Positions 5,164-36,892 of a stretch of DNA of 41,275 bases are shown here, in pieces. The notes beneath the pieces are model-generated. The model did no database searches and had not been told where the DNA came from. It worked only from the letters and a program-made list of their open reading frames with translations. The stretch covers positions 1 to 41,275 of the IMG/VR virus record IMGVR_UViG_3300048819_000110; one strand, given 5' to 3'. The stretch is from a virus. Taxonomy: Duplodnaviria > Caudoviricetes. Positions within the stretch are counted from its first letter, which is position 1. The number at the start of each line of letters is the position of its first letter. Position numbers and translations under genes: made by a program.

Positions 5164-5477
<314 letters not shown>

Positions 5478-5496
<19 letters not shown>

Positions 5497-5786
5497 TTTA
5501 TGAAGCTGATTACGGCTCGCATCGGGAGTACAACTTCGCCGACCATGTCCAGTTTCGTTTCGGGTTTCGGGCCGTCGATCAACTCCCCAAGACCTTGAGT
5601 CGTTCCCCATTTGCGAATGTTTCGGGCGTTTGTGATTGTCGCAAAGTCGCCATCAGTTGCGACGGTTCCGACATAGACAAATCCGCGATCAGCCACGACG
5701 ATTTGAGTCCCCCATTCTTTTGGGGCTGGATGTTGCGTTTGTTTTCCGCCGACGGCGGACAACAGTTCATTTAGTTCGATTTGCAT
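5478..5786 (-). CDS. DUF6948-like phage protein
   Basis: IVVADRGFVYVG...NARNIRKWGTTQGLGEL..GP. Confidence 0.8.
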
Positions 5787-20009: not shown

Positions 20010-22559
20010 TTAGAATCCAGTCACTGCTGTATGTGCATTCGTGGCTGCGTCATAATACGTCCGATACATTACCGGCACGGCTGTGTTGCCGACATTGTTG
20101 CTGCTCCATAGTGATGGAGCGTTGGATAGACCAGCCCAGCCAGGTGCCGTCTGTAGATTCGCAAAAACCGTGTTTGTATAGAGCACCATCGAGTCGACCA
20201 CTCGGATCAATTTATTGCTGACCGTAATCCCAATATTGCCGCTTTCAGAAAGCGCGAGCAAATGGGAATAGTGAGCGTCCAATGTGAGCGAAGAACTCGG
20301 GCCTTGATCCTGAATGCCTGTCCCGACCGCGATATAGTACGTCACGCTAAATCCAGCTCCGGTGGTCACCTGGACCTGGTTCGCGCCGAACACCACGTTG
20401 CCATTCCCGCTATACATTGTGCCGCCCCCTGTGATGATATTTAGCGTGTTCGACGCATTAAGAGTGATATTGCTCGCAGTCACTGAGACCGCCGGCAAAT
20501 TCCTGCCCGCATACAGGTTAGTCACAAGCTCAAATGTTTGCTGTGATCCCAGCAAACAACTCAGGTTCAAATTGGTCCCGAGAATCGCATACCCCAACGT
20601 GTTGGGATGCAGCCCATCCGATGTGATGTCTCCAGAAACCACCGACCACAAACCAGAATCCCGCGACGATTCCACGATGTCAGCTAACTCGAAATAGCCA
20701 GATATTAACCCGTTCGCCCCCTGACGCACCCAGTTATTCCATTGCACCCGCACAGGGTTTCCAGTGCCATACAATGTCTGATTCACCAACGTAGTCCAAC
20801 CATCGCTAGAGGTGGTGTACGGCGTGCATGTGCACAGGTACACTTTTTTGCCCGCTTTGATCTGAGGTAACGCCCAGCCAATGAATGCATTCGTCAGTTG
20901 CTGAAAGGTATCCGCATTGCCGTAAATTGAGTTCACGTCCAGCTGGCAAATGATCGCCGTGCTCGCCTGTGAAGTCACTGGCGCGTCCCAAATCAACACG
21001 TTCGATTCCGTCTCGAACGAATTTCCCGGCGCAGCCATGCAAATTGTTGGAATCCCCAACTGCACTAATTTTGTAGGGAAATACGAAATCCCCGCAATGC
21101 GTGAGTCCCCAATCAGTGACACCGACGTGATCGGTGTTGCGTTCGCGATTCCCACGCGACTCCCAACCACAATCGGGCAGTAACCATACAGCGTGCCGGT
21201 TTGCAAGCCGTTGGTGGCCGACATCGTCCAGTCTGCCGCATTCGTTCCAAGCAAATAATAATCCACAAATCCACCAAACGGATTGATCTGATACGGCGTT
21301 GGAAACGCGCAATTCGTGTATGTCCAGACATAGGTTCGGCAGCGATACACCGCATTAGTCGGCAGAATTGTCGGGATCACGTCCGACATCACCGTTTGAT
21401 TCGTTCCCACCGTCACCGACGCCGAACCACCAAACGTAACCCGAGTGAACGTGCCGATAGGATATTCCAGCGACCCAGTGTAAATCACCGCATTTGTGCA
21501 CCGCTGATCCGATGCAGGCCCTAATCCATGCACCGGAAAATTGCCAAATAGAAAATGCAAATTGTTAACCGCCGCGCCGGTCTGGTTCGTCTGTTGGATC
21601 GCGAAAAACCCCACGTTGCAATTCGATGGATAAAAAGACGCATTCGTGGAGCTCGTGCCCGTCCACGTCTGCCCAAATGCGATATTCCCCCATAACCCAT
21701 TCGTCACCACGCTCCCCGGCAGGCTGGCGGACTGGATATTTGTGATGTTGACACCGTTCAATGCTGGTGATGCGCCATTGGTGACAAACGACGGTAGGTT
21801 GGTCGGGTTAATGATGCCGACGATGTTAGGACCGGACAGATTAGTCCCAGCGCCTAGATTCGATGGCTCGACGAGGTTGAATCCGTTCGTCCATGTCGCG
21901 ACCAGGTTGGCGCTTGAATCTCTAAGCTGTCGATTAGTTGTATTAATTGCCTGAAAGCCACCAATGAAATCGAAGCCTGTTAAGCCGTAAACAGTCTCGC
22001 TGGCTGTCTGTGCCGTGCCATTCGTGGCCGTCAAATTGCCGCTCACCAGTAGCGTGTTGTTAACCGTCAGATTGTTGCTTAGGGTCACGGCGCTGGCGTT
22101 GTTGTTGGTAATGTAATAGCCCGGCAGTTGGGTGTTCAATGTTATGCTGCCGTCGCTGTTTGTAACAAAAACGAAATTCGTCCCCGCTATCAAGTTTGCC
22201 ATGCCATTGGTGCCGAAATAAAACAGCGGGCCAGAAACAAGCAACGTCGTGACGTCGAGCACGTTCGTACTCGCTGGCACCGTGAACCGAACCGGCTTGA
22301 CCACGCCGGGCACCGTGAGTAGGTAGGTGTTCGGGTAGAGACCGACCACCGGGTTCGTCGTGCTGGCCGGAACAAGTGTATAGGTGCCAGCCCAAAGGTT
22401 TTGGCCGTCCGAAATCAGCGTGTTGGCCGCCGTCAAAGTCAGTTGCCGGTTATAAGCCGCCCCGCCAAAGAGCGTGTTGAGCGGGAATGAAACCGAAGTT
22501 ACCTGCGCGCAGGCCGACAACGTCAAACAGAGCAAAGCGAATGTGAATAATTTTTTCAT
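20010..22559 (-). CDS. Signal-peptide/lipobox-bearing Thr-Asn-rich protein with SGNH/GDSL esterase domain
   Basis: MKKLFTFALLCLTLSAC|AQ; LIGDS...LDVNS...DGLHPNTLGY. Confidence 0.85.
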   Translation of the reverse strand: MKKLFTFALLCLTLSACAQVTSVSFPLNTLFGGAAYNRQLTLTAANTLISDGQNLWAGTYTLVPASTTNPVVGLYPNTYLLTVPGVVKPVRFTVPASTNVLDVTTLLVSGPLFYFGTNGMANLIAGTNFVFVTNSDGSITLNTQLPGYYITNNNASAVTLSNNLTVNNTLLVSGNLTATNGTAQTASETVYGLTGFDFIGGFQAINTTNRQLRDSSANLVATWTNGFNLVEPSNLGAGTNLSGPNIVGIINPTNLPSFVTNGASPALNGVNITNIQSASLPGSVVTNGLWGNIAFGQTWTGTSSTNASFYPSNCNVGFFAIQQTNQTGAAVNNLHFLFGNFPVHGLGPASDQRCTNAVIYTGSLEYPIGTFTRVTFGGSASVTVGTNQTVMSDVIPTILPTNAVYRCRTYVWTYTNCAFPTPYQINPFGGFVDYYLLGTNAADWTMSATNGLQTGTLYGYCPIVVGSRVGIANATPITSVSLIGDSRIAGISYFPTKLVQLGIPTICMAAPGNSFETESNVLIWDAPVTSQASTAIICQLDVNSIYGNADTFQQLTNAFIGWALPQIKAGKKVYLCTCTPYTTSSDGWTTLVNQTLYGTGNPVRVQWNNWVRQGANGLISGYFELADIVESSRDSGLWSVVSGDITSDGLHPNTLGYAILGTNLNLSCLLGSQQTFELVTNLYAGRNLPAVSVTASNITLNASNTLNIITGGGTMYSGNGNVVFGANQVQVTTGAGFSVTYYIAVGTGIQDQGPSSSLTLDAHYSHLLALSESGNIGITVSNKLIRVVDSMVLYTNTVFANLQTAPGWAGLSNAPSLWSSNNVGNTAVPVMYRTYYDAATNAHTAVTGF

Positions 22560-22561
22560 GG

Positions 22562-23023
22562 TTAAAATGGGCTGGTCAAACTGACCAAGCCGCCGACAAA
22601 ATTGTATTCAAAAGACGGTGCCGTGCCAAGCCAGTCAGCGAGATTCAGTCCATCCAGCGCGCAGTTGAGCAGGTACAGCGTGGTGTTCGTTGTCGTGCCA
22701 ACAAGCTTGATTTGCAAATTGCCGGTCGTTGGGAAGCTGGTCGGCTGCTGCAAAGCGAAACTGAAGGCTCCCTCGGGATCTGGGAATGCTACCGCTGAGA
22801 AGTCCACGCCACGCCGAACGCGGAGCGAGAGTGAGTTCTGCCAGTTCTGGTTGTCAAAAAACGCCTTCGCCGCCGACCCGAAACCTGATTCGGTTTGAAT
22901 TATCCGCGAGTGATTAAATTTGATGTCCATCTCGGTCAGAGACCGAGTGGTATTGCAAAGCGTCAGGACGCCGGCACCGCTCCACGAGGCGGTGCCGTCG
23001 GGGGCATATAGCAGCGTGAGCAT
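22562..23023 (-). CDS. Putative tail protein (distal-tail-like)
   Basis: Synteny; beta-rich 153 aa. Confidence 0.65.
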   Translation of the reverse strand: MLTLLYAPDGTASWSGAGVLTLCNTTRSLTEMDIKFNHSRIIQTESGFGSAAKAFFDNQNWQNSLSLRVRRGVDFSAVAFPDPEGAFSFALQQPTSFPTTGNLQIKLVGTTTNTTLYLLNCALDGLNLADWLGTAPSFEYNFVGGLVSLTSPF

Positions 23024-23032
23024 TCAAAGTGC

Positions 23033-23215
23033 CTAATTGAAAATTACGCCGTTGGTGAACGTCACGAACGAGGACTGGATCGGCGCATAAATATTGTTGG
23101 ATATTGATGTCATCTGGAACACGATCTGCGCGCCAGCTTTCGGTGTGAGCACCAGCGCGCAGGCCGCCGCCACTATCCCGATTTTGTTTTTAAGTTTTTT
23201 GATCAGTTTTTTCAT
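23033..23215 (-). CDS. Small secreted peptide
   Basis: Basic n-region, h-region, AGA|Q cleavage site; 31-aa mature part. Confidence 0.7.
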   Translation of the reverse strand: MKKLIKKLKNKIGIVAAACALVLTPKAGAQIVFQMTSISNNIYAPIQSSFVTFTNGVIFN

Positions 23216-23235
23216 GGTGTATTTTTGTTGGATGG

Positions 23236-24198
23236 TTAAGCAATTGGGTTTGCCCAGTAATCGCCACGGACGCCAGCGGTCAGGCTCGGCAGAGCTTCCC
23301 AGGCAACCTCGCCCTCGCGCAGTTGCTCGACGCCATTTTGGATTTTGGATTTCACGAGTTGGCCGAGCGGGAAGGAGAGATAGACTTTGCCGTCCGCGCC
23401 TGTGACGGAAACGGAAAATCCCTTTGCAAAACCACTGGCACCGCGCACCGCGCCGGCACCTTGGATCTGCAATTGAGTGTCGATCATGGTTCGGGTCACG
23501 CCGATGGGAATCCCGCGCAACATTCCGCCCACGGATTTGATTCGCCGATTGAAAAGGCCGACCGCCGCCACGTTGTCGTCCACAAATTCAACCTTCGGCT
23601 CGAAGGTCAATCCGTCGTAAAAATCCAAGCTGGCAAAGCCGGAAACGCTGCCCCAGGTGAGCTGATAATCTTGAGTGATTATCGACTGATTGGTAAACGT
23701 GGCGTCAACGAACGTCCCGCCCGAGTTGGCAAATGTCCGCAGCGATCCGGCCGTGGACCACGCATTGACCGCTCCGGCCGTCGTACCCCGCAGGCAGAGC
23801 AGCTTCATTTGCCCCACCAAAGTTTTTATCGGATGAAACATCATTTGAGGCATGTCAACCACGGCTACCGCCGCATGCGTGTCCAACGAGCTGTCAATTC
23901 CGTGGACCGAGGCCGGCACGTCAGTTGTCGGAAAGATGCCAGCGCCCAGAACTGGGTTAGCGTATGGCCACAGCACGGCCGCGATCGCCGTCGTCATGCG
24001 TCCGTCTGGCGTGATGCTGATTTCGTCATATGCCTCTTTGTCCCGGTTGTCGACCTTGCCGATGCCGGCCACTCCAACTGGCTCCTGACTGTAAACAAGG
24101 TCGGTGTCAATGGTGGTGCCATCCTTGGAATAGACGCTGATCCCGTTGAAGGATAAGCGCCCGGGGATTCGGTTTAGAGAAGATCTTTGCAGGCTCAT
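23236..24198 (-). CDS. Putative major tail tube protein
   Basis: 320 aa, downstream of head-tail completion genes; no sheath gene. Confidence 0.6.
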   Translation of the reverse strand: MSLQRSSLNRIPGRLSFNGISVYSKDGTTIDTDLVYSQEPVGVAGIGKVDNRDKEAYDEISITPDGRMTTAIAAVLWPYANPVLGAGIFPTTDVPASVHGIDSSLDTHAAVAVVDMPQMMFHPIKTLVGQMKLLCLRGTTAGAVNAWSTAGSLRTFANSGGTFVDATFTNQSIITQDYQLTWGSVSGFASLDFYDGLTFEPKVEFVDDNVAAVGLFNRRIKSVGGMLRGIPIGVTRTMIDTQLQIQGAGAVRGASGFAKGFSVSVTGADGKVYLSFPLGQLVKSKIQNGVEQLREGEVAWEALPSLTAGVRGDYWANPIA

Positions 24199-24201
24199 AA
24201 A

Positions 24202-24975
24202 TTAGTTCCAAAAGTTTGCTGCGGCGGTATCGCTGCCGGATTGGTTGCGGGTGAATGCTCGCGCCCGAAACAGGCACGGCTGAGTAATATTGACCGGTGC
24301 GCCAGTGTAAAGTGTCGCCTGCGCGTTCCCCTCGCGCGGGTGCGATCCATCAACCGTGTACCAGACGGAATCAGCAGTTGCTTTCACAAGTACGGTCGCC
24401 GTCCCGGTAAGCTGGTATGAATTCGGCGTGATCGCGGCCACAACCGAACCGCTAACGACGATCTGAGGTCGAGCCACACGCAGGAACGGGCGAAAATCAG
24501 CTTCGGACGCCGTGAATTTGAGTTGCCCGACCCGAAGGTTCGTGTCTCGATCCGGTGTGAATTCATAAATGGTTGGCTGGCTTGGCACCAGACTTTGAGT
24601 CAATCCGACCGGCGTGTAAAGCTTCAACAGCTTTTCGGCGAGCGCGGTCCACACGCGGCACGGCAGCATTGTCCCCCTGGGACCACGGTTTAGGGTCACA
24701 TTTTCGACGAACTGAACCAGAATTGTCAGCTTGAGTGGTCCCCCCGGCATGTTTGCATTTTCGTCGCTCGCCTCCTCGATTGGTAGCACAAGGAAGCCGA
24801 TGCCCATGAGACCGTCAAGGCCTGGCCCGATGGCCATCTGAACTTTGCGATTCAGCGCATCCTCGATGTCTCCCGGCTCGACGGCCACACCTACCCGCGC
24901 GCCGATGATGGCGTCCGCGAGTAGGCACCCGAGAATGTCCTGCTGAATCAGCGGCCAAAGGTCTTGATAGTCCAC
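24202..24975 (-). CDS. Tail completion/terminator-like protein with C-terminal chitobiase/Fn3-associated Ig-like domain
   Basis: VWYTVDGSHP...LYTG.P..I....FRARAF; GTG start at 24975. Confidence 0.7.
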   Translation of the reverse strand: MDYQDLWPLIQQDILGCLLADAIIGARVGVAVEPGDIEDALNRKVQMAIGPGLDGLMGIGFLVLPIEEASDENANMPGGPLKLTILVQFVENVTLNRGPRGTMLPCRVWTALAEKLLKLYTPVGLTQSLVPSQPTIYEFTPDRDTNLRVGQLKFTASEADFRPFLRVARPQIVVSGSVVAAITPNSYQLTGTATVLVKATADSVWYTVDGSHPREGNAQATLYTGAPVNITQPCLFRARAFTRNQSGSDTAAANFWN

Positions 24976-27002: not shown

Positions 27003-27014
27003 ATTTCTATTTGC

Positions 27015-27047
27015 AAAAAAAGGCGGCGGGCCATGACACCCGCCGCC
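27015..27047 (-). terminator. Intrinsic terminator after the capsid block
   Basis: Minus strand ggcggcggg-N8-cccgccgcc-TTTTTTT. Confidence 0.85.
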
Positions 27048-27068
27048 AGTATTAACCCACACTGAACG

Positions 27069-27593
27069 TTACGGCGTCACCAGCCAGTCGAGCTGCAAAT
27101 TGAACCCGCCGTAATTGCCCGGGTTGTTGGTTCCGACAACGGTGAACGAGTACCTGTACACACCGTACCCATCGCCCTGGGCCTGATTGATGTTCGTGAA
27201 TGATCCGACGTAGGTATTCGACGCCGTGATATTGTTATTCCAAGTCAGCAACGGGTTGTAGGTAAATGCGAAATTGGTGCCCGCCGCCGGGTTGGTGTAA
27301 TTGTTGTTCGGACCCACGACGCCGTAAAGGTTGAAGAAAACCTGATTGGTGCCGATGCCGTTAGTAGTGCCGCCATATGGCGAGTATTCAGACAGCAGAA
27401 AGTTTCCGTTGTGCCAGCCGATGGGGTTCAGCTGGTTCGTCAGAAACCCGGTGTACGTCACGTTGTTTGTCACAAAGCCGTTGAAGGCCGTGTAAACGCG
27501 CGGCACAACATAAGTTTGCGCCTGCGCCGGAGCGGCCATGAAGAGCGCGGCCAAAAGCCCGAGGCTGACCGTGAATTTTTTGAGCATGTTCAT
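27069..27593 (-). CDS. Signal-peptide-bearing Thr-Asn-rich beta protein directly after the major capsid gene
   Basis: MLKKFTVSLGLLAALFMAAPAQA|Q; nearly uncharged mature part. Confidence 0.85.
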   Translation of the reverse strand: MNMLKKFTVSLGLLAALFMAAPAQAQTYVVPRVYTAFNGFVTNNVTYTGFLTNQLNPIGWHNGNFLLSEYSPYGGTTNGIGTNQVFFNLYGVVGPNNNYTNPAAGTNFAFTYNPLLTWNNNITASNTYVGSFTNINQAQGDGYGVYRYSFTVVGTNNPGNYGGFNLQLDWLVTP

Positions 27594-27621
27594 ATTTTTT
27601 TCGTGTTAATGCTGAGTGGTA

Positions 27622-28644
27622 TCAGCTGATGGCCACAAGCTGTATGCCGGTCGTGTGTTGGGTGTGGAGATACTCGAAATTCTCCACCGTGAGGACGATT
27701 TTCTTGACGCCAAGTTCGTTGACGTAAACCGCATATTCGCCGCCGCCGCCGGCGCCGTTCGTGACGTGCCGGACAAGGTTGGAAGCGTCCATCGGGGTTA
27801 CGTCCTTGATGCCGGTGAAAATCAGGACGTTCTGGCCAATCAATTCCTGCTTGGCCGTCGCCGTGTTCTGGTAGCGTTCCATGTTGATCAGCGTGGAGGA
27901 AACGCCCAAGGCGGTCGCGAGCTGCTCCTCGTTGTACACAGAGGCCCGGGCCAGAGATCCGGCTGTAAGCTGGCTCTCGTAACTGGTCGCCCGCTTGAGG
28001 AACGCCGCGTCACCATACGCCACGTTTTGCGCATAGAAGCCGGTGGTGTTCGCCGTGTTCAGGATGATGTTGCGGATGTCCAAATCAGGATTTGCCGCGC
28101 TGTCCCAGGTCTTTCCGGAGTTGATTGCCGCCGCCGTGTAAATCGCAATGGCTTCCTGAACCGTGGCCCGGTTCAAGAGGTCGATCAACCACTTGGTGTG
28201 GATCTGCTGCCATTCGGGCTTATCCTTGAGCTCGTCCCGGTCAAGCACCACGGACAAGCCGCGATTGTTGATCTGGAAATCGCTCTTGGACGCAACGCGC
28301 TGACGAACCTCGGCGAAGTCGGCGAGGATTCCGCGCTTCACCTTGTTGTAATCAACGGTTTCCCATGGCTCGTTTTCGTTGTACGTCATCAGCCGGACGA
28401 TGCGCGAGTTGCTGGGGCGGGGCGGGGCGAGATAATCGCGCAGCCGGGACAGCCCGTTGCCCACCATGGAATCGTAGCTGGCGGCAAAGAGTGTCAGCTC
28501 CTCGATTTGCTCGACGGAGCGGAGGAGGGAATCGTTGGACAGGCAGACGGTCCCGGAGGCCATGCTGCCAATGTCGTTTGAGAGCACCACGCCCGCGCTT
28601 TGTAAGGCAGCCTGGCGGGCGTTGGAAAGGGCAATTTGTTTCAT
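27622..28644 (-). CDS. Major capsid protein
   Basis: 340 aa after protease/scaffold/decoration genes; W..ANPDLDI motif; strong codon bias. Confidence 0.8.
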   Translation of the reverse strand: MKQIALSNARQAALQSAGVVLSNDIGSMASGTVCLSNDSLLRSVEQIEELTLFAASYDSMVGNGLSRLRDYLAPPRPSNSRIVRLMTYNENEPWETVDYNKVKRGILADFAEVRQRVASKSDFQINNRGLSVVLDRDELKDKPEWQQIHTKWLIDLLNRATVQEAIAIYTAAAINSGKTWDSAANPDLDIRNIILNTANTTGFYAQNVAYGDAAFLKRATSYESQLTAGSLARASVYNEEQLATALGVSSTLINMERYQNTATAKQELIGQNVLIFTGIKDVTPMDASNLVRHVTNGAGGGGEYAVYVNELGVKKIVLTVENFEYLHTQHTTGIQLVAIS

Positions 28645-28655
28645 AATCGTATGTA

Positions 28656-29225
28656 TTAGACCGGGTTGGTGGGATAGGTCAGGGTGCCGTTAGTGTTCAC
28701 CAACTGGTAAGGGTCAACCGGCACATAAGGCACCTCCATCGTCGAATTCGTCGCGACGATGGTTGCGGCTGCGCGACCGACGACCCAGTAAGTGCCGTTG
28801 GCGACACCGGCTTGACTGATGTCCTGCACGCATCCGAGCGGGGCGGAGACCAACAGCTTGTCGATGGTGACAGCGGTGCCGCCGGCAGCGATGCCCAATT
28901 CAAGTCCGGGCCGAGCACCGAGCCGGCGAACTGCCATCACGTCGCCGATAGCGTACGGCGCGTCAGGGCTGGGTCCGAGAGGGAACGGGCCGCCCGCACC
29001 ACCGTTGCAGATATCGCCGTATTGGTAGCCAGAGGCACCGCGCTTGATCAGCAAATAACGATTCGAGAAAGGCAGTGAGGTTGAGGCCGGGTCAACAAAA
29101 AGCGACTCAATGCCGTGCTCGTTGAACATGCCCAATGCATTGGCAAGGGCGATCTTTTTAGGGCGGTCGAATAAAGCGCGAAGCGTGCAAAGCATGAGCG
29201 CCAGTTTAATTTTCGGTTGTTTCAT
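28656..29225 (-). CDS. Head decoration / capsid cement-like protein
   Basis: Gly/Ala-rich; position before the MCP; YWVVGRA motif. Confidence 0.65.
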   Translation of the reverse strand: MKQPKIKLALMLCTLRALFDRPKKIALANALGMFNEHGIESLFVDPASTSLPFSNRYLLIKRGASGYQYGDICNGGAGGPFPLGPSPDAPYAIGDVMAVRRLGARPGLELGIAAGGTAVTIDKLLVSAPLGCVQDISQAGVANGTYWVVGRAAATIVATNSTMEVPYVPVDPYQLVNTNGTLTYPTNPV

Positions 29226-29258
29226 TGGTTTGGTTGATGGTTGGTTTTGTTGTGGCGC

Positions 29259-29501
29259 TTACTTTTTTACGGCGGCGGCGGCAGCCGCTTTGACGGCGAG
29301 ATCGTGCTCGCGCTGACGCTTGATGACGCCAAAAGCCTGTTCGCGAGTGAGGCCCAGAATCATTTTAGAGCGGATCTCAATTTCGTCCGCGCTGGCTTGC
29401 TTCTGTTGGGCCTGATATTCCGCAATCAGCTGGTTGGCGGCGGTCAGTTCGACGGTAAGCCGGTCTATGGTCTGCTTTGGGGTTTCGGTTGCTTCGGCCA
29501 T
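29259..29501 (-). CDS. Small helical head-associated protein
   Basis: Fits the operon; GLTREQA motif. Confidence 0.7.
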   Translation of the reverse strand: MAEATETPKQTIDRLTVELTAANQLIAEYQAQQKQASADEIEIRSKMILGLTREQAFGVIKRQREHDLAVKAAAAAAVKK

Positions 29502-29504
29502 AAA

Positions 29505-30083
29505 TTATTGAGCTTTGGGGGTGATCTTGGTTGCGAGTCCGGCATATTTCGGCAACTTCATGACGTTGGCGTGCGCTTTGATAACGTTCTGGCCGGTGAC
29601 GATGAGTTCGGCTTGCAGGGCCGCATTGTATTCCGCTGCCGTCTGCTCGGCTTCGTTTTCGAGTGCGGAATTTTGTTTGCCGCCGATGGCGTCCATCTTG
29701 CGGATCGGCTTCGCGGCGAGCAACGCGGCGGAATCCTTCGCAAAGTCGGCGCTGTTTTCCAAAGCGGTAACGGTGGCGGCGCGGTCGGCCACATTTTTTG
29801 AGCCGCGCTGAATGGCGAGGTCGGCGGCCAATTCGGCGGCCTGTTTGCGAGCGGACTTGTGCGCGGCCTGCTCATTGGCGAGAGCGGTTTTCGATGCGCT
29901 CAATTCGTTTGCGAGCGCCACGGACTTGGTCTCAAAGCTGTCCTTTTCATTGGCGAGAGCGTTCGATTGCTCATCGTTTTTCGCCGCCACTTTTTGCACG
30001 GCGGCGACAACCGCTTGATCGGATGAGTCGTTGGCCAGGACGATCCCTTTCGCGGCCAACCAACCCAGAAGAATTTGTTTCAT
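29505..30083 (-). CDS. Scaffolding-like protein
   Basis: Ala/Lys coiled coil after the protease; multiple ALANE motifs. Confidence 0.7.
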   Translation of the reverse strand: MKQILLGWLAAKGIVLANDSSDQAVVAAVQKVAAKNDEQSNALANEKDSFETKSVALANELSASKTALANEQAAHKSARKQAAELAADLAIQRGSKNVADRAATVTALENSADFAKDSAALLAAKPIRKMDAIGGKQNSALENEAEQTAAEYNAALQAELIVTGQNVIKAHANVMKLPKYAGLATKITPKAQ

Positions 30084-30120
30084 AAGTGTTTTTCTAATGT
30101 TTTGGTGATTTTGTCAATGT

Positions 30121-30471
30121 TTAGTTTTTGAATCGCGCAGCCCGGCCCATGTGATAATTGGCGGCCGCTTTGTGGAACTCGGCGGCGTCGGTGTCGCCCG
30201 CCTTGTCGTGCGCCGCAGCCGCTTTCATGTGCGCCTGGGCGGCTGCATGATGACTCGCCTTGTCATTCGCGGCGGCGGATTTAAGATGCGCCTGCCGGCT
30301 CGCCTCATGCTCCTTGCCGTGCGCTTCGCCTCCGGCATATTGGTTTCCGTGAAATTCGTGACCGACGTAATCGCCATTTTGCAGCGCGGCCATGATTTCT
30401 TTTTCACCTGCGTCGTTGGCAAGGGTAACTCCCTTGCCGATCAGAAGCCCGATTATTTGTTCTTTTAACAT
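30121..30471 (-). CDS. Probable in-frame internal product of the protease gene (Mu gpZ-like start)
   Basis: ATG at 30471 preceded by aaaccaaccaaacact, like other gene starts here; N-terminus resembles that of 29505..30083. Confidence 0.5.
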   Translation of the reverse strand: MLKEQIIGLLIGKGVTLANDAGEKEIMAALQNGDYVGHEFHGNQYAGGEAHGKEHEASRQAHLKSAAANDKASHHAAAQAHMKAAAAHDKAGDTDAAEFHKAAANYHMGRAARFKN

Positions 30472-31314
30472 AGTGTTTGGTTGGTTTATTGGTGGAACGG
30501 TAATTGGAGTGGGCGAATTTTGATTCGCGAGACTTTCTACTCCTGAAATATTCGGGAACTGCGTGAGCGCAACAGACAGCAGCTTGAACGGTCGCGCGCG
30601 GATCGCGTCCCCGTCGTTGCCAATGGGCTGAACCAGCCAGAACGCGGACGGCAATTTCCAGCCGGAAGCAACTGCGTCCGCGCCGTCATTATCGAGCGAG
30701 AAATGAGCCTCGATGCCGCGAGCTGTCTTGCGAATCTGATCCACCACGCCCAGCTTTATTTTCTTCGTCTCATTGCCCAACGCCTTGGGGTCGTGATCGT
30801 TCAAATCACCGTGGCCTTTGAAAATCGGGATGCCAACAAACGCACGCTTGAGCTTTCGGAAAAATGAATTCTCGCCGTCCAACAGGGCGTCGGCGGATTG
30901 GTTGTCGAGCACCTGAATGAACTTCTGAGTTTTCAGCTGACCATTCTCGCGATACAAGCGCGTCTTGGGATGGTCGCCGAATGGAGCAATTAAAGCCCAT
31001 CCCTCATTATCCAGTGGCCCGGGCGCATCATTGGCCAGCACCGGCTCGTCGTCGCAACAGGCTGCCATGGCGTCGTGTCCGCACGCAATGCCTTCGTGCA
31101 TCGCAGCGTTGCCTGGCTTTCCGTCATCCGTCGCGCGTTTCGCCGCCACGCGATGAAGCTTGGCTGCCCGCGTATGCAAAACACTGTCCGACTTGGCATG
31201 CGCTTCACCGCTGGCACTGTGCGCCGAACTGGCCGCGTCGGAAAGTTCCGCGCTAAAATTGCCGGCTTCCCCGCGCGTCTGATCGGGGTCAAATGCGTTG
31301 GCTAATGGGATCAT
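30121..31314 (-). CDS. Mu gpI-like prohead protease with His-rich N- and C-terminal extensions
   Basis: W.LIAPFG, PIFKGH.D, PSAFW, RPFKLLSVALTQFPNI. Confidence 0.8.
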   Translation of the reverse strand: MIPLANAFDPDQTRGEAGNFSAELSDAASSAHSASGEAHAKSDSVLHTRAAKLHRVAAKRATDDGKPGNAAMHEGIACGHDAMAACCDDEPVLANDAPGPLDNEGWALIAPFGDHPKTRLYRENGQLKTQKFIQVLDNQSADALLDGENSFFRKLKRAFVGIPIFKGHGDLNDHDPKALGNETKKIKLGVVDQIRKTARGIEAHFSLDNDGADAVASGWKLPSAFWLVQPIGNDGDAIRARPFKLLSVALTQFPNISGVESLANQNSPTPITVPPINQPNTMLKEQIIGLLIGKGVTLANDAGEKEIMAALQNGDYVGHEFHGNQYAGGEAHGKEHEASRQAHLKSAAANDKASHHAAAQAHMKAAAAHDKAGDTDAAEFHKAAANYHMGRAARFKN

Positions 31315-33308
31315 GTTTTTTTGGCGAGTGCTTTCGCCAGCTTTTGGGTTGTGAAATCGTTCAAAACTTTTGCCGCCTTCGGATATGCGTTTATGTCGCC
31401 CAGCAGTTCAATCAGTGGACCGCGTTCGGCGACAAACTCTTTGAGTTTTTTCACCATGAGCGAATCATCCTTGATTTTTTCGATGGATTGCAAGGCATTT
31501 CTCACCGGGTCAAGATCGTCGGAGCGCGCAGCAGCCAATTGATTGGCCGGTTTCATTACTTCATTTTCCAGAGCGATCTTGCGGATTTTTGAGGTCACCA
31601 CACGCCGCAATGTTTGCGCGGCGCGCGTGTTGCCGAGGCCCAGCGAGTCCAACTCGACCAGCTTGGAATTCGGGATCGAGTAGCCCAACGCGGGCGATTG
31701 CAACCCGGCCTGACTCCATAGCCCGGCGTCATCAACCTCGGGCGTGCCCATGCGCTTTGGAATTGGCATTTGACGCGAGGCCGCCTGCGAATAATAGGGA
31801 GCGCCCGGCTTGGCAAGGTCGGGATTGCGTTTCGGATCAGCTCCAGCTCCAATGGTGGCGTCTTGCGATTGCATTGCCGGCTGCGTTTCTTCTTTCGGCA
31901 ACTCCCCATTAATGAGCGGGTCCGTCTCCTCACCGGTGGCATCGCTGGCGACAGGCGGCTTCGGTGGTGCCGCAGGTTTCGGCTTGGCCGCAGGTTTGGG
32001 TTGCCCGGGCTTGGCTGGCGCGTCCTCGTCATCCTCTTGCGGAGGTCCTCCGGCACCCATTGGCGGGGCGGGCGGTTGCAAGCACGGCTCGCCGGCCTGG
32101 GGCACCGACCAGCGGAAACGCTTGTAAACTTCCTTCATCATCACCTTGAATCCCATTGGGACCAGCCCCTGCAGCGCCAGCAAATCATCGGGCGACGTGT
32201 CGGCAAGCGGCGGCATCAGGACGAACCACGCGCGCGGCTCCTGGTTGAACAGGTAACGGATAACTGGCCGGTCAATACGTTCGTTAAAAACTCCAGTGCA
32301 CCATTTGGCGTCGCGGATCAGCAGAATGCCCGACTCCTCCTTTTGCACGCTCGCGCCAACGGCACCCTTGCCGCCGCCGCCAGATTGGCCGCCTTGACCG
32401 GCCTGAGAAGAGCGCGAACCGGTGGCGAGATCCACGCCGCGGTAGCACTTGGCGTAAAGCCCATTGATGAACTCAATCATCGGATGGAACGGGGTCTGGT
32501 TGCGTGATGCCTGTTCGAGGAATTTCAGCTCCACCCCTTTGTTGTGCAGCGATGCACCGTCATTGGCCAAAGTTTGCAAGGCGGTCATTGCCTGCGTCCA
32601 TTCAGGCGATCCCTCTTGCGCATCCGTTATCGCCTCCAAAAACCCGCTTCCGTAGCGCGTGTTGAACAGCATCCAGTCGCGCAACGAAAACATTTTCATC
32701 GCGTACGCAATTCCAAGCGAACGCATCCAGCCGATGTTAACCGCAGTCAACCATTCGCCTTGGACACACGGTATTCCGTACATGTCAAAGATGTGGGGCA
32801 TGTAGCCGAGATAACCGCGCCGGCATTCAAAAAACCAGAGCGGCGTGTGCCGGAATTCGGCGGTGACTTCGCGGGCGGCGGCGTTGTCCACGCGCAGCAG
32901 CATTTCATGGATGCTGAATTTGTAATCAACGGCCGAGAAAACCTGATAGATCAATTCATCTGTGCCGCCGGTTGTGTCCTGTTCTAGCGCCTCGGTCGCC
33001 TGAACATTCTCGTAAAAATATTGGAGCGCCGCCGCGTGTTCGTCGCCGTCCGATGAGCCGTCCGAAACGATTTGCCATTCCATGCCCGTGGCATCTGACT
33101 TTCGTTTGTCGGAATTGACGGCCAGTTCGCCATCACGTTCCATCATGACTTCCCAGGTCTTGCCGATCTGACGGAAATCACCAATCCGAAAGGCGTTCAT
33201 CTGCCTCGACAATTCGTCTATGTCGAGCGACGGCATGGGGGAATATTTGAGGCGAATGGCCCATTCGATGCGAGCCTGGTTGAACTGCGATGCGCCGGTT
33301 TGATTCAT
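31311..33308 (-). CDS. Portal protein (Mu gp29/DUF935-like) with Pro-rich C-terminal extension
   Basis: Follows terL; MERD..L....KRK, DW..F..RYG, P.IRYLF motifs. Confidence 0.85.
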   Translation of the reverse strand: MNQTGASQFNQARIEWAIRLKYSPMPSLDIDELSRQMNAFRIGDFRQIGKTWEVMMERDGELAVNSDKRKSDATGMEWQIVSDGSSDGDEHAAALQYFYENVQATEALEQDTTGGTDELIYQVFSAVDYKFSIHEMLLRVDNAAAREVTAEFRHTPLWFFECRRGYLGYMPHIFDMYGIPCVQGEWLTAVNIGWMRSLGIAYAMKMFSLRDWMLFNTRYGSGFLEAITDAQEGSPEWTQAMTALQTLANDGASLHNKGVELKFLEQASRNQTPFHPMIEFINGLYAKCYRGVDLATGSRSSQAGQGGQSGGGGKGAVGASVQKEESGILLIRDAKWCTGVFNERIDRPVIRYLFNQEPRAWFVLMPPLADTSPDDLLALQGLVPMGFKVMMKEVYKRFRWSVPQAGEPCLQPPAPPMGAGGPPQEDDEDAPAKPGQPKPAAKPKPAAPPKPPVASDATGEETDPLINGELPKEETQPAMQSQDATIGAGADPKRNPDLAKPGAPYYSQAASRQMPIPKRMGTPEVDDAGLWSQAGLQSPALGYSIPNSKLVELDSLGLGNTRAAQTLRRVVTSKIRKIALENEVMKPANQLAAARSDDLDPVRNALQSIEKIKDDSLMVKKLKEFVAERGPLIELLGDINAYPKAAKVLNDFTTQKLAKALAKKT

Positions 33309-34798
33309 GTCAGTGAGCCCACTTTAAGCCTACCCATGCCAAGATTTCCAGCATTATGTTGGATCGTCAGCCCGGTTACGCGACTGGACGACACCGGCAA
33401 GCTGCCGTGTTCTGCCGCGCGAACCGCCAGCGCCAAAGCCCAAAAATGATCAGCATGACCGCTCTCAGTGCGCGTGGCCGCAATGCTGGTTCGGCCACCG
33501 GGTGTCGTGATTCGCTCTGGCTTGCGCAAATCCTCGATCGCGTCAGAGTCGAGCAAGACCTCGATCGTCAAAGAGCGGTCCTCGAAAACTTTCAGCAACG
33601 CCGTGGCCATGTTTTCGGTCACCCTCGCCGTTTCCTGCTTGCGCCCTTCGGCGCGGATGAAGTCGTTTATAGGCTCAGTGCAGGCAAAGTTCACGCCGGC
33701 AATCCTCGCCCGCCCCCAAGATTGCGCCTGCGAAAACTCGACCAATCCCAACCCGAGACCAGTCATGTCGATGCAACCGCCGCGAAACTTTGGCATTCGG
33801 CAAATGAGTTCGAGCTGATTCTGTTGGTCGGGCAAACGCATCCCGGCCATGCGCAACACGCCCAACACGCGGCGGGATTGTCCCTGCCTCTCAAGGACGA
33901 TGATCACGGACAAATCGCGGTTACGACCAACGTCCTGGCCAAGGAACAAGTCGCCCTCCGCGCGGAACAATCGCGCTATGGTCACCGCCGACCAAGATTG
34001 ATCGTTCATCGGGATTCCATCACGCAACGCCTGCTGGATAAGTTCGTTAGTGAGCAAGCACATGTTTTCATCGTTGAACTTGCACTCGTAGTTCTGGTCG
34101 TAGGCGCGTTTGTCCAGGGCCCGGGAGCGGGCGACGTCGGGGGTGATCTCTTCGCGAGTGTTGGGGTCGTACACAGGGACCCCCATCTCGTATGCGCACT
34201 GCCGAGTCACGCGGCTTAGTCTGAATCCTGCCGGCGTTGTGAACACCTCGCCATTCTGCGGGCCGGCACCCGAGGTCATGCGGTGGAACATGTTGTATTT
34301 TCCGTTGCCGGTCGATGCGATGCGGCAAAGATAATCGCGATTGCTCGACAGGATTGGTTCGGCTGCTTCCCAGATGGCGCTGCTGTTTTCGTGGAAGGCG
34401 AATTCATCGAGGATTAGATCGCCGGAGAAGCCGCGGGCGGTGCGGGGATTGGCCGCCAGCACCTTGATGCGTCCGATTTTTCCACCGACTTTTATACGCA
34501 CCTCGAACCGCATGTTTTCGTAGGTGGCATCCGGTGAATCGTCCATCGTCTCGAACACGGCGCCAAGCTCTGTGCAGATGGCTCCGGCCCGCGCGGCAAA
34601 CTCACCACCATTGTCGCGTGAGTTACTCAGCACGGTGACAAGCCGGCCCGGGCGAGTCAATAGCCGGTCCACTGCCCAGGCTGCCAGCACAAAGCTCTTC
34701 CCGATCTGTCGCGACCAGTGAATAATGAGGATGCCGGTTGCGTTGTCGCGGAAGATCGCCAATTGATACGGACGGAACGTTAGTTGCCCCTTCAGCAC
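33305..34798 (-). CDS. terL: Terminase large subunit (Mu gp28-like)
   Basis: WSRQIGKSF, ANPRTARGFSGDLILDEFAFH, STGNG, GQDVGR.RD, HADHFWALALA. Confidence 0.95.
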   Translation of the reverse strand: MLKGQLTFRPYQLAIFRDNATGILIIHWSRQIGKSFVLAAWAVDRLLTRPGRLVTVLSNSRDNGGEFAARAGAICTELGAVFETMDDSPDATYENMRFEVRIKVGGKIGRIKVLAANPRTARGFSGDLILDEFAFHENSSAIWEAAEPILSSNRDYLCRIASTGNGKYNMFHRMTSGAGPQNGEVFTTPAGFRLSRVTRQCAYEMGVPVYDPNTREEITPDVARSRALDKRAYDQNYECKFNDENMCLLTNELIQQALRDGIPMNDQSWSAVTIARLFRAEGDLFLGQDVGRNRDLSVIIVLERQGQSRRVLGVLRMAGMRLPDQQNQLELICRMPKFRGGCIDMTGLGLGLVEFSQAQSWGRARIAGVNFACTEPINDFIRAEGRKQETARVTENMATALLKVFEDRSLTIEVLLDSDAIEDLRKPERITTPGGRTSIAATRTESGHADHFWALALAVRAAEHGSLPVSSSRVTGLTIQHNAGNLGMGRLKVGSLT

Positions 34799-35361
34799 AC
34801 CGCCTCCTCGCCAAACAGTTTGATTCGCGCCTGCTTGATCTTTTGTTCTTCCGTCAGGGTTGAATCGGCTTTGATGGACCGCAACGATTCGATTTGAGAA
34901 AGTGCCAGTTCGGCGGCGCGAAACTCGAACTTATCGCGATCCAGTTTTAGATTTTGCGCTGCCAGATCCTGCTTTATTATTGCGACCCCCAAATCAAAAT
35001 CACCAGTCTGCTCCGCTCGCCGGTATCCCTTGGACAATACCGCCTCGCGAGCCTGGTCGAGGCTCCATGTTGGATTATCTTCAATCGCACGCTTGAGCTC
35101 TTCGCGTTGCAGTTCGGCTTCCTCTCGATACCTCAATTCATGTTGCCACCACGACCGGAATTTTGAAATGGTGCTGTCATGCTTAATGTCGATATCAAGC
35201 CGCTTCAGAATTTCCGCTCGCACATCGAATAGAGTTTTTTCAGGGCTCAAAAATAAGTCCATCCAGAAAGCGCGCTCCTCGTCGGTCATGTCCAGCCAAG
35301 CTTTTTTCAGATCGCCGATGGGCCCGGGAATTGCCTTTCTCGAAAGCTGAGTGGAAATCAT
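34792..35361 (-). CDS. Putative terminase small subunit (Mu gp27-like)
   Basis: Immediately upstream of terL; helical; C-term I...R.KLFG. Confidence 0.7.
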   Translation of the reverse strand: MISTQLSRKAIPGPIGDLKKAWLDMTDEERAFWMDLFLSPEKTLFDVRAEILKRLDIDIKHDSTISKFRSWWQHELRYREEAELQREELKRAIEDNPTWSLDQAREAVLSKGYRRAEQTGDFDLGVAIIKQDLAAQNLKLDRDKFEFRAAELALSQIESLRSIKADSTLTEEQKIKQARIKLFGEEAVC

Positions 35362-36155
35362 AAAATCGGGACCGGATTGGTGATGCCATCCAAAGCGTCG
35401 ATGTAATTTCCAACGTGATGATCAACGATTGGATCAAGCGCGGCGGTAAAATGCGACGTGGTCCATTTGCGCCAGATGCCCCAGGCATCAGATGCGAGCA
35501 TGCGAATCAGCGGAGGATTGAACCAGAGATCATCAATTGATTTGGTCGGTTTCAGGCTGGAGATAAAAACTTCGTTTCCGCCGTGCCAGTAGACATCCCG
35601 AAATGATGGAATATGCGGAAACCTCGGAACAATGTCCTCCTCAAATACCATGCGCCAGGTTCGATCTTTAAGCGCGGAGTCGTACCAATCCGCGAATGCT
35701 TTGTTGCCGACGCGGGGTTGTCCGAACGTGTAAACTTGCGCGATGGTGAATCCTTTGCGGTGCAACTCCATTGCGGCGAGCACGGCCAGGGCACCGCCAA
35801 GCGAATGGCCCGTGACAAATATCGGCCTTGCGTGAATCGCGTTCGAGCATCCGCCCAGGGCTTCGCAGATGGCGATCAGCACAGAGTTTAGAGCCGCTTC
35901 AAAGCCGCGATGAACGCGCGCGTTTAGTCCGCCGGCTGACATGAGCAAGCGCCGCTCAAAGTCGGCATCGGTCAGCCAGTTGCGGATTGAGTGCGTGCCG
36001 CGAAACGCGATCACGGTTGAGTCCGGCAACTGCTGGATTGTCAAATGCGTGTCGGTCGCAATCTCGCTAATGTCGGATGTTGCGTATGCGCCGGCGCTCG
36101 CTTTGCAGCAGTACCGGGCGTTTTCGAGATCAAACAATTTGGCTTGAATGTTCAT
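35358..36155 (-). CDS. Class 3 lipase (alpha/beta hydrolase)
   Basis: IAFRGT, VHRGF, VTGHSLGGALA, YTFGQPRVGN, DIVPRFP, DH...Y; start MNIQAK is ATGA-coupled. Confidence 0.93.
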   Translation of the reverse strand: MNIQAKLFDLENARYCCKASAGAYATSDISEIATDTHLTIQQLPDSTVIAFRGTHSIRNWLTDADFERRLLMSAGGLNARVHRGFEAALNSVLIAICEALGGCSNAIHARPIFVTGHSLGGALAVLAAMELHRKGFTIAQVYTFGQPRVGNKAFADWYDSALKDRTWRMVFEEDIVPRFPHIPSFRDVYWHGGNEVFISSLKPTKSIDDLWFNPPLIRMLASDAWGIWRKWTTSHFTAALDPIVDHHVGNYIDALDGITNPVPIL

Positions 36156-36346
36156 GTGGTTCGAGTCGTGAATTTTGGCCAATCGAAAATCAGCACAGAG
36201 GTCTTGCGGCGGGCGTTCGTTTTGTACGGGCCGCCAACGCAGCCCGCTTCCTCCAATCGTTTGCACCGATCGCAAACTGGCGATCCCTTTTTCACCTCCA
36301 ACGCCAGCCGACCGCAATCACAGTGCATGATCTTGGCGGTCTTCAT
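36152..36346 (-). CDS. Small Zn-finger protein
   Basis: CDCG...CDRC; coupled to the lipase. Confidence 0.65.
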   Translation of the reverse strand: MKTAKIMHCDCGRLALEVKKGSPVCDRCKRLEEAGCVGGPYKTNARRKTSVLIFDWPKFTTRTT

Positions 36347-36349
36347 CGC

Positions 36350-36892
36350 TCAGAATGTGAAGCCCATGCCTCCGCGAACTGCCGGAGTGCCGTCGAATGT
36401 CACACCCTTTTCCCATGGAATCGAAAGCGAAGCCGTTGCGTAGGTGATCCGCGTCATGAATTTTGTGATCTTCAGTTCCGGCTCGACCTTGAGCCGCAAC
36501 GTGGTGGTGCCGGGAATCTTCTGCCCGCCGACCAACGCGTTTAATTCCATCTTGAAATCGTATTCCTGGATGATCGCAAAACCAATACCGCCTTCGCCGG
36601 CATTGAGCGCGGACCCGACGCCAAAACAGTCGCCCTCGGCCGTAACATTCCAACGTCTGAAATTGTATTGGGCGCGCAGGTAGTCGCTGGCCCCCTGGCC
36701 GGTTGTCTGGTTGTAGCCGTCCTCAAATTGCAGTGTGGCCGTCCATGTGAAATTCGTGTTGAAGCTGGTGCCCCAATCCGCCGCCTGGTTGAAAAAATTC
36801 AGCTCGACCGGCGCGTTCGTTTGACCGCGTGCTGATAAGGCGAACACAGTTGCGATTATGGCGTATGCCGCGATGATGAGTAGTTTTTTCAT
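36350..36892 (-). CDS. Secreted outer-membrane beta-barrel-like protein
   Basis: Signal peptide (ARG|Q), alternating amphipathic strands, C-terminal GMGFTF. Confidence 0.7.
   Translation of the reverse strand: MKKLLIIAAYAIIATVFALSARGQTNAPVELNFFNQAADWGTSFNTNFTWTATLQFEDGYNQTTGQGASDYLRAQYNFRRWNVTAEGDCFGVGSALNAGEGGIGFAIIQEYDFKMELNALVGGQKIPGTTTLRLKVEPELKITKFMTRITYATASLSIPWEKGVTFDGTPAVRGGMGFTF

What the first reader, a model, noticed from the sequence alone, without database searches (positions are those of the whole stretch)
20010..36892. Four exported, Thr-Asn-rich proteins embedded in the virion operon: a possible extracytoplasmic step in phage assembly
Seen: 36350..36892, 27069..27593, 23033..23215 and 20010..22559 all have Sec-type signal peptides whose predicted mature chain starts with Q (ARG|Q, AQA|Q, AGA|Q, ACA|Q). 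The TN dipeptide is strongly enriched in the two that can be judged: by hand count 8 in the ~150-aa mature 27069 product and about 27 in the 849-aa protein, versus about 5 in the 723-aa signal-less tail hub. They are co-oriented and tightly packed among head and tail genes, with no own promoter visible. Established: tailed virions assemble in the cytoplasm and their structural proteins lack signal peptides. Inference: these proteins are exported, perhaps pyroglutamylated or glycosylated, and then either added to virions at lysis or used to remodel the cell envelope late in infection.
Basis: partly seen in the sequence, partly recalled or inferred. Interest (0 to 1): 0.85.

Follow-up and report, generated by a model that had tools for sequence, protein, structure and literature searches.

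The report
Phage fibres carrying bacterial export signals
A peat-soil tailed phage, likely of a Verrucomicrobiota host, puts predicted secretion signals and its host group's Thr-Asn "exported protein" signature on a tail fibre and a capsid-linked protein, so these outer parts are likely made outside the cytoplasm and would join the particle only at lysis, a route I found no paper on for tailed phages.

Summary
The four leaders are there, but the four genes are not one class.

- The 849-aa protein is a side-fibre-like receptor-binding protein. Right after its leader is a domain whose top five fold matches are phage fibre anchors. It is about 100% identical to a sister phage over residues 1-200 and 18-42% beyond.
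- The 174-aa protein is a jelly-roll whose family follows capsid genes of four families.
- The 60-aa ORF is a 270-nt deletion allele of a 150-aa gene.
- The 180-aa protein looks like an outer-membrane barrel, not a virion part.

Leaders diverge (16% identity) while the domains behind them are conserved (73%). Thr-Asn is enriched 2.5-fold in the leader-bearing proteins, 1.07-fold in leaderless virion proteins, and 2.2-fold in secreted proteins of a prophage-bearing Verrucomicrobiota genome; two Acidobacteria controls show none. It is a host trait, not the canonical N-glycosylation sequon.

Likely model: export, periplasmic modification, attachment at lysis (0.62). Export, modification and presence in virions are all untested. 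The scan reported this route before in other genomes.

The parts
20010..22559 (-). 849-aa side-fibre-like receptor-binding protein: leader, fibre-anchor domain, stalk, beta-rich domain plus SGNH esterase cassette
22506..22559 (-). Predicted Sec signal peptide of the 849-aa protein (18 aa); no in-frame ATG/GTG/TTG in the first 22 mature codons
   Evidence: leaders in homologs
22230..22505 (-). Fibre-anchor domain (mature residues 1-92)
   Evidence: block pLDDT 52-90 here; the rest of the model is unreliable; 8keg_a Z 9.0 rmsd 2.7/89, 9d93_La 8.5, 9e7m_Ta 7.9, 9cod_A 7.6, 7kjk_A3 7.5
20427..21581 (-). Swappable cassette (residues 327-711) with SGNH motifs GDS at 484-486 and DxxH at 648-651
   Evidence: PHROG 8480 E 1.4e-30; motifs; 34 phage records by tblastn
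27069..27593 (-). 174-aa leader-bearing jelly-roll protein directly after the major capsid gene; probable capsid decoration
27519..27593 (-). Predicted signal peptide of the 174-aa protein (25 aa; my rule preferred cleavage after residue 23, the family alignment favours 25)
23033..23215 (-). 60-aa remnant of a 150-aa leader-bearing, TN-rich gene; in-frame 270-nt deletion with the joint near 23060
   Evidence: short form in runs X1 and X2 (possible sources), full form in X4, X6, X13
36350..36892 (-). 180-aa leader-bearing probable 8-stranded outer-membrane beta-barrel; not a virion part
   Evidence: 8 alternating strands and C-terminal Phe; Atlas feature hits at 0.96 including a PagL cluster, shared features 158 of 256; alignment
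27622..28644 (-). Major capsid protein (leaderless, TN-poor)
   Evidence: hhalign probability 98, E 1e-13 to PHROG 1005 major head proteins; family TN O/E 0.54
22562..23023 (-). 153-aa leaderless gene that precedes the fibre in relatives; distal-tail-like by position and size only
   Evidence: no library match
23236..24198 (-). 320-aa leaderless gene; tail tube by position only
   Evidence: conserved in 24 non-redundant loci; no library match
27022..27047 (-). Terminator-like hairpin after the 174-aa gene; no hairpin between the capsid gene and it in this window
35358..36317 (-). Class 3 lipase next to the barrel gene; possible lysis or envelope module (start at 36317 or 36155)
   Evidence: PF01764 E 1e-33; synteny in L002, L003, L004, L014

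Best explanation
This tailed phage encodes a fibre-like protein and a capsid-linked jelly-roll protein that begin with predicted Sec signal peptides, so they are likely exported to the periplasm, likely modified there by the host at Thr-Asn sites, and would dock on cytoplasm-built particles once the inner membrane is breached at lysis. Shown by sequence and calls: the leaders, their conservation in form but not in sequence, the anchor-domain fold match, the swapped C-terminal cassette, the gene order, and the TN bias shared with host secreted proteins. Inferred: cleavage and export; that TN marks a modification site (probably a sugar, enzyme unknown, not the N-x-S/T system); docking of the anchor as a collar at the tube/distal-tail junction, as lambda Stf does; binding of the jelly-roll to the capsid surface. 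The purpose would be to fold and coat host-facing parts in the compartment that holds the host's modifying machinery. The 180-aa protein is a separate outer-membrane barrel, and the 60-aa ORF is a broken allele.
For: (1) In 20 close anchor homologs picked from the 36, the last 18 leader residues average 16% identity and the domain 73%; leaders are 18-71 aa long; Q precedes the domain in 19 of 20 as computed. All 18 anchor hits in the loci held, and all 17 further genome hits shown, have a hydrophobic leader. (2) The top five of 48,161 chains matching mature residues 1-93 are phage fibre or collar anchors, each aligned from the target's start; BFVD hits include tail fibres. In Ur-lambda, 12 StfN domains form a collar at the gpV/gpM junction (PMC12617516, passages). 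(3) About 100% identity to L001 over 1-200, then 18-42%; homologs carry SGNH, LamG or galactosidase C-termini. (4) The 174-aa family: 19 matches in 18 of 401 genomes of the host order; 8 follow the window's capsid family, 8 directly follow PHROG 10, 283/267 or 1005 head genes, 1 lies one gene later, 2 are less clear. (5) TN observed/expected is 2.48 in the four mature chains, 1.07 in 13 leaderless virion proteins, 2.22 in 59 predicted secreted and 1.02 in 296 cytosolic G001 proteins, and 1.0 and 0.84 in secreted sets of two Acidobacteria MAGs (13 and 19 proteins). (6) Five of the 34 cultured-phage homologs of the SGNH cassette were examined: none has a leader, TN 14 vs 14.6 expected in total. 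(7) T4 fibres attach to finished fibreless particles (PMC3004832, passage).
Against: No virion proteomics, cleavage or localisation data exist. The signal call is my own rule plus conservation, not SignalP. The anchor Z-scores (7.5-9.0) are middling and only slightly above a bacterial adhesin (5cag, 7.5). The jelly-roll's best matches are generic (TPP II Z 10.5, PNGase 9.9, XepA 9.8); a phage capsid chain ranks 50th (9in6_c, Z 7.7), and one family member sits at the tail end of a locus (L160). Both genes are optional: the 174-aa gene is absent after the capsid gene in about 7 of 22 lineages (my hand grouping), and L014 and L048 lack the fibre. One SGNH homolog is TN-rich without a leader (L183, 5 vs 2.0). 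No holin or endolysin was recognised in 67 window ORFs scanned with Pfam, so the mixing step has no identified gene. Five of 36 database anchor homologs start inside or just before the domain and could not be checked on DNA. Tube and distal-tail labels rest on position.
Confidence: 0.62

Rival explanations
1. The proteins are exported but stay free: fibre-derived esterases and lectins that strip or mask the host surface receptor late in infection, or act as decoys, and never join the virion.
For: The SGNH motifs are intact; the genes are optional; prealbumin-like folds also occur in secreted adhesins and pilins (ranks 6 onwards).
Against: The anchor is the most conserved part while the enzyme is swapped, which a free enzyme would not need; the position after the distal-tail-like gene or the capsid gene holds across capsid families; one copy per genome, beside phage genes in most of the 21 matches.
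Confidence: 0.15
2. The leaders do not export the proteins. They tether nascent fibres to the inner membrane or are bypassed by an internal start, and assembly stays in the cytoplasm.
For: Some leaders are long (up to 71 aa); some database entries start inside the domain; in L222 and L215 a soluble domain precedes the hydrophobic stretch.
Against: No in-frame start codon in the first 22 mature codons of the 849-aa gene; basic N-region and small-x-small|Q ends are kept; TN bias tracks secretion in the host and is missing from the leaderless virion proteins.
Confidence: 0.1
3. They are lysogenic-conversion or superinfection-exclusion morons that happen to lie in the late operon, like lambda Lom and Bor (recalled).
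For: Fits the 180-aa barrel; several relatives look like decayed prophages flanked by host genes.
Against: Fixed slots in many relatives; gaps of 2-28 nt; no promoter excess; the fibre is retained and varied like a receptor-binding protein.
Confidence: 0.07
4. Finished particles enter an intact periplasm by a non-lytic step and are armed there before the outer membrane opens.
For: No recognised holin or endolysin in the window; a lipase and a barrel gene lie upstream of the terminase.
Against: Missing library matches are weak evidence for such divergent genes; no translocation machinery is seen; moving a tailed particle across an intact membrane has no precedent that I recall.
Confidence: 0.06

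Closest known systems
Lambda side tail fibre Stf N-terminal collar domain (PDB 9e7m chain Ta) and related anchors: cyanophage A-1(L) neck fibre 8keg, Bxb1 tail tip 9d93, DEV collar 9cod, XM1 neck 7kjk
   Same: A roughly 90-residue beta-sandwich at the very start of the mature chain (Z 7.5-9.0), followed by a variable receptor-binding part; optional gene.
   Different: Here it follows a predicted cleavable signal peptide and is TN-biased. In the five matched structures the domain aligns from target residue 1 or 2, with no leader in the modelled chain.
Phage SGNH-esterase 'minor tail proteins' (PHROG 8480; Shewanella vB_Sb_QDWS, Arthrobacter TripleJ gp31, Gordonia Wrigley gp32)
   Same: 25-32% identical cassette over about 300-400 residues with SGNH motifs.
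   Different: The five examined have no leader and no overall TN excess, and most lack the anchor and stalk. Their names are annotations, not tests.
Jelly-roll capsid cement or decoration proteins (BPP-1 Bbp16 and epsilon15 gp10, recalled; Vibrio phage VP1 capsid chain 9in6_c)
   Same: Single jelly-roll of similar size; gene beside the capsid gene; 109 of 111 residues of 9in6_c align (Z 7.7, rmsd 3.3).
   Different: The match does not stand out from generic carbohydrate-binding jelly-rolls; no Pfam or PHROG match for the window protein; it has a signal peptide.
Lambda Lom-type phage outer-membrane barrels (recalled)
   Same: Signal peptide, about eight amphipathic strands, C-terminal aromatic residue, encoded in the late region.
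   Different: No Pfam match for the window protein; the slot holds lipoprotein-like genes in other relatives (L004, L044).
Filamentous phage coat proteins with signal peptides (recalled)
   Same: Virion proteins routed through the host secretion machinery.
   Different: Those stay in the membrane and the particle is extruded through it; here the particle is a tailed, terminase-packaged capsid and the mature proteins look soluble.

Membership tests
Sec/SPI signal peptide | Basic N-region, uncharged hydrophobic core, small residues at -3 and -1 | tested here: met
   4 of 4 by my rule, 0 of 21 other late proteins; 3 acidic residues in 360 leader positions of homologs
Sec/SPI signal peptide | Leader diverges while the mature chain is conserved from the cleavage site on | tested here: met
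   16% vs 73% identity in 20 anchor homologs; same pattern in the 174-aa family
Sec/SPI signal peptide | SignalP call; actual cleavage and export | not testable with these tools
   No SignalP or proteomics available
Stf-type side fibre | N-terminal collar/anchor fold | tested here: met
   Top five matches are phage anchors, Z 7.5-9.0; middling scores, no sequence-level match
Stf-type side fibre | Conserved N-terminus with exchanged C-terminal modules | tested here: met
Stf-type side fibre | Made in the cytoplasm without a leader | tested here: not met
   Leader present in 18 of 18 and 17 of 17 loci read on DNA: works like an Stf fibre, not filed as an ordinary member
Stf-type side fibre | Trimer; collar docked on tube and distal tail | not tested
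   No complex prediction was obtained
Jelly-roll capsid cement/decoration | Single jelly-roll fold | tested here: met
   Model pLDDT 78, pTM 0.77; jelly-roll matches
Jelly-roll capsid cement/decoration | Specific kinship to Bbp16, gp10 or VP1 cement | tested here: inconclusive
   9in6_c Z 7.7 at rank 50 among generic folds; no profile match
Jelly-roll capsid cement/decoration | Gene adjacent to the major capsid gene | tested here: met
   16 of 19 genome matches directly after a recognised capsid gene; one further member lies at a tail end (L160)
Jelly-roll capsid cement/decoration | Binds the capsid | not tested
   The planned capsid-plus-jelly-roll prediction never ran
SGNH hydrolase | Block I GDS nucleophile and block V DxxH | tested here: met
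   GDS 484-486, DGLH 648-651; PHROG 8480; Pfam SGNH models gave no hit at E 0.01
Outer-membrane beta-barrel (Lom/PagL-like size) | Amphipathic strands and C-terminal aromatic residue | tested here: met
   8 strands in the window protein; 6-10 strands and terminal F or Y in 9 of 9
Outer-membrane beta-barrel (Lom/PagL-like size) | Barrel structure or family match | tested here: inconclusive
   Atlas 0.96 to unnamed, PagL and DUF481 clusters with shared counts under 170; not folded
PglB/STT3 N-glycosylation | N-x-S/T sequon enrichment in exported proteins | tested here: not met
   NxT O/E 1.12 in host secreted, 0.83 in phage families; NxS 0.95 and 0.93
PglB/STT3 N-glycosylation | STT3 gene in the host | tested here: inconclusive
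   0 of 2 incomplete MAGs; controls rang in 4 archaea
Moron | Own promoter and sporadic insertion | tested here: inconclusive
   Promoter-like sites at chance; genes optional but in fixed slots

The most novel reading that the evidence does not exclude
Tailed phages of a whole Verrucomicrobiota order, across at least four capsid families, build heads and tails in the cytoplasm but send fibres and decorations through Sec so that an undescribed host Thr-Asn glycosylation system coats them; particles are armed in the seconds between inner- and outer-membrane rupture and leave wearing host sugars.
Probability: 0.3. Interest if true: 0.93.

Novelty: categorically new. Interest (0 to 1): 0.8.

Why it matters
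Tailed virions are assumed to be finished in the cytoplasm (established knowledge), so annotation treats any signal-peptide gene as non-structural. If these fibres are exported, there is a second, periplasmic assembly stage, lysis timing becomes part of morphogenesis, and host-range genes in this host group are being overlooked. Separately, Thr-Asn is the most over-represented dipeptide in a Verrucomicrobiota secretome sample (z 13) and points to an undescribed protein modification in abundant peat bacteria; that can be tested in any cultured member without the phage.

Tried and rejected
Complex prediction (capsid x2 plus 174-aa protein x2): never ran, the queue was full; no verdict on binding.

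Full-length model of the 849-aa protein: mean pLDDT 44.6, only the first ~95 residues are usable; the stalk and C-terminus have no fold evidence.

Profile searches of the PDB, Pfam and PHROGs for the anchor, jelly-roll, capsid, tube, distal-tail-like and 189-aa families gave nothing significant. tblastn of the capsid and 723-aa proteins against cultured phages found nothing. The Atlas search of the jelly-roll gave only scores of 0.80 or less with low recognition.

'The 150-aa gene is a paralog of the 174-aa gene': rejected (hhalign probability 0.5; only 2 sequences on one side).

'The terminator groups the 174-aa gene with the capsid gene, so it is high-copy': weakened. Hairpins follow the gene in all 13 cases folded, but also lie between capsid gene and it in at least 4 of 6 relatives checked.

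Cysteine content does not separate leader-bearing from leaderless proteins.

RNA-library contigs span the capsid gene and the 174-aa gene in two runs; contigs cannot rank expression and no silent control stretch was laid, so this is not used as evidence.

Literature: five full-text searches combining phage, signal peptide and virion, fibre or tailspike terms and two on Verrucomicrobia glycosylation returned no paper on this route, judged from listings and abstract starts only. All terms had to co-occur and the library lacks most subscription journals, so this is weak evidence of absence. No supplements were read.
Full report
Setting. The window is a 41-kb virus record with one late operon on the minus strand: lipase, terminase large subunit, Mu-type portal and protease, then the 340-aa major capsid protein, identified by profile alignment to PHROG 1005 head proteins (probability 98). 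The labels tube (320 aa), distal-tail-like (153 aa), tape measure (460 aa) and hub (723 aa) rest on position and size; libraries gave no match. All 20 sequencing runs listed as holding the DNA are peat or permafrost metagenomes. The closest genome-borne relative (82% capsid identity) lies on a 150-kb contig of a MAG titled Verrucomicrobiota, among host genes. Capsid homologs occur in 40 of 401 genomes of that MAG's order. The order is not named by the tools; Limisphaerales/Pedosphaerales is my recollection-based guess. Four other hits lie in MAGs with Acidobacteria or Bifidobacteriaceae titles. G002 has the TN-biased secretome (O/E 2.4); G403 and G404 do not, so their phage contigs may be mis-binned.

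Observation. The four ORFs, leaders and TN counts are as reported. A crude signal-peptide rule flags these 4 and none of 21 other late proteins. TN exceeds shuffles in the 849-aa and 174-aa proteins but not in the 180-aa or 60-aa ones.

The leaders behave like signal peptides. In 20 close homologs of the 849-aa N-terminus (picked from 36 found), leaders of 18-71 aa share 16% identity while the next 90 residues share 73%, and Q precedes the domain in 19 of 20 as computed. Every anchor-bearing gene I could read on DNA has a hydrophobic leader: 18 of 18 and 17 of 17. Five of the 36 database proteins start inside or just before the domain and could not be checked. The 174-aa family has 44 representatives at 50% clustering; 40 show a hydrophobic core in the first 130 residues, and the other 4 look like fragments. 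The 849-aa gene has no in-frame start codon in its first 22 mature codons.

The 849-aa protein. Only its first ~95 mature residues fold with confidence. Their five best matches among 48,161 chains are all phage fibre or collar anchors (Z 9.0-7.5), tied at the low end with one bacterial adhesin. BFVD matches include annotated tail fibres. In Ur-lambda the matched StfN domain forms a 12-copy collar where tube and gpM meet (PMC12617516, passages read), and here the gene follows the tube and distal-tail-like genes, as in many relatives. Against L001, whose neighbouring genes are 95-100% identical, it is 98-100% identical over residues 1-200 and 18-42% afterwards, the usual sign of receptor-binding-module exchange. 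Residues 327-711 match PHROG 8480 with intact SGNH motifs. Five of 34 cultured-phage homologs were fetched: none has a leader, and together they hold 14 TN against 14.6 expected, though L183 alone has 5 against 2.0. L014 and L048 lack the gene altogether, so it is accessory.

The 174-aa protein. It models as a jelly-roll (pLDDT 78). Matches are generic, led by TPP II, PNGase F and PBSX XepA; a Vibrio phage capsid chain aligns over 109 of 111 residues but ranks 50th. The stronger evidence is position. Of 19 matches in 18 of 401 genomes, 8 follow the window's capsid family and 8 directly follow head genes of PHROG 10, 283/267 or 1005; one lies a gene later, one follows an unannotated 354-aa gene, and one lies two genes after a head protease. 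Among 29 genome loci of the window's capsid family (hand tally), the slot holds this family in 9, another leader-bearing protein in 3, a leaderless ~270-aa TN-poor protein in 5, the adaptor gene directly in 7, and is unclear in 5. One member lies at a tail end instead (L160). Capsid binding was not tested.

The other two. The 60-aa ORF is an in-frame 270-nt deletion of a 150-aa gene in L001 and L015. The short form is in runs X1 and X2, which may be the window's source; X4, X6 and X13 hold the full form. The full protein is TN-enriched (6 vs 1.9); its role is open. The 180-aa protein has eight alternating strands and a terminal Phe, as do its relatives, and its Atlas neighbours include PagL and DUF481 barrel clusters. 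It is best read as an outer-membrane protein of the envelope or lysis module. It is not TN-enriched in the window, although nine proteins from this slot together are (25 vs 11.3).

Thr-Asn. In 703 kb of G001, TN is the top dipeptide in 59 predicted secreted proteins (259 vs 116.5 expected, z 13) and neutral in 296 cytosolic ones. NT, SN, TD, NxT and NxS are neutral. Two Acidobacteria-titled MAGs show no bias in 13 and 19 secreted proteins. The window's four mature chains give 2.48, 13 leaderless virion proteins 1.07, and 80 database proteins of the two leader-bearing families 2.87 (these are related sequences, not independent). Eight leaderless structural families give 0.38-1.18. In a split layout (L146) the leaderless 215-aa gene has 0 TN and the leader-bearing fibre 20 against 8.0. 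STT3 was not found in 2 incomplete MAGs. So TN tracks export in this host group. That it marks a glycosylation site is inference; which residue and which enzyme are unknown.

Mechanism. Heads and tails assemble in the cytoplasm. The fibre and the jelly-roll are likely exported by Sec, cleaved to an N-terminal Gln, folded and modified in the periplasm, and would dock when the inner membrane fails. T4 long fibres attach to fibreless particles as a late step (PMC3004832, one passage), so late docking is feasible. The weak links are the lack of any protein-level data, the middling fold scores, and the absence of a recognised holin or endolysin among 67 window ORFs scanned. I give this 0.62, free secreted enzymes or decoys 0.15, no real export 0.10, morons 0.07 and non-lytic passage 0.06.

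Novelty. My searches found no paper on signal-peptide-bearing fibres of tailed phages (listings only, limited library). The scan's own notes report the same route in at least six other genomes, none a look-alike of the 174-aa protein. These are unchecked AI notes, seen after I had written my reading, and are not counted as support. The parts are of known kinds; the route is not, and it is still a prediction.

Noticed in passing
window 27622-33308 (portal, protease, 192-aa, 189-aa and capsid genes): L-A/S-N occurs 13 times in these head proteins against 4 times in 5,822 residues of the other late proteins, and N29 of the 189-aa family is invariant. Probable prohead-protease cleavage motif; inferred.
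   Followed up: partly
L222:1471-2121 (-), L215:1207-1965 (+), P0070, P0074-P0076: The jelly-roll is preceded by a soluble N-terminal domain and then the hydrophobic leader; in L222 that domain matches DUF7210 weakly (E 2.8e-4, below cut-off). It could tether a cytoplasmic phage domain to the membrane at the export site.
   Followed up: partly
L201, L202, L203, L204, L207: Leader plus anchor-domain genes directly after an HK97-type capsid gene or before a head-tail adaptor: possible exported neck or head fibres.
   Followed up: partly
L146:5216-8116 and L149: Split layout: a leaderless, TN-free gene of about 210 aa followed by a leader-bearing gene.
   Followed up: partly
L008 (G001:C209) and L038: Structural clusters flanked directly by host-like genes with no replication module seen; L038 shows no terminase. 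Decayed prophages or GTA-like elements.
   Followed up: no
window 35358-36317: A class 3 lipase sits where lysis genes often lie; no holin or endolysin was recognised in the window.
   Followed up: partly
window 13724-15580 and 13374-13727: A leaderless, TN-neutral 618-aa beta-rich protein with 11 Cys and a 117-aa protein with 8 Cys end the operon; probably the cytoplasm-built central tip.
   Followed up: no
window 5164-5786: A Gly-Asn/Gly-Asp/Gly-Tyr repeat ORF (148 aa) overlapping a 102-aa ORF; low-complexity, unexplained.
   Followed up: no
window late genes: Upstream regions are A-rich and mostly lack a Shine-Dalgarno motif.
   Followed up: no
L128, L131, L134, L136, L138: Capsid-like gene followed by a leaderless ~270-aa gene; in L155, L157 and L161 host-like genes follow with no tail module.
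   Followed up: no
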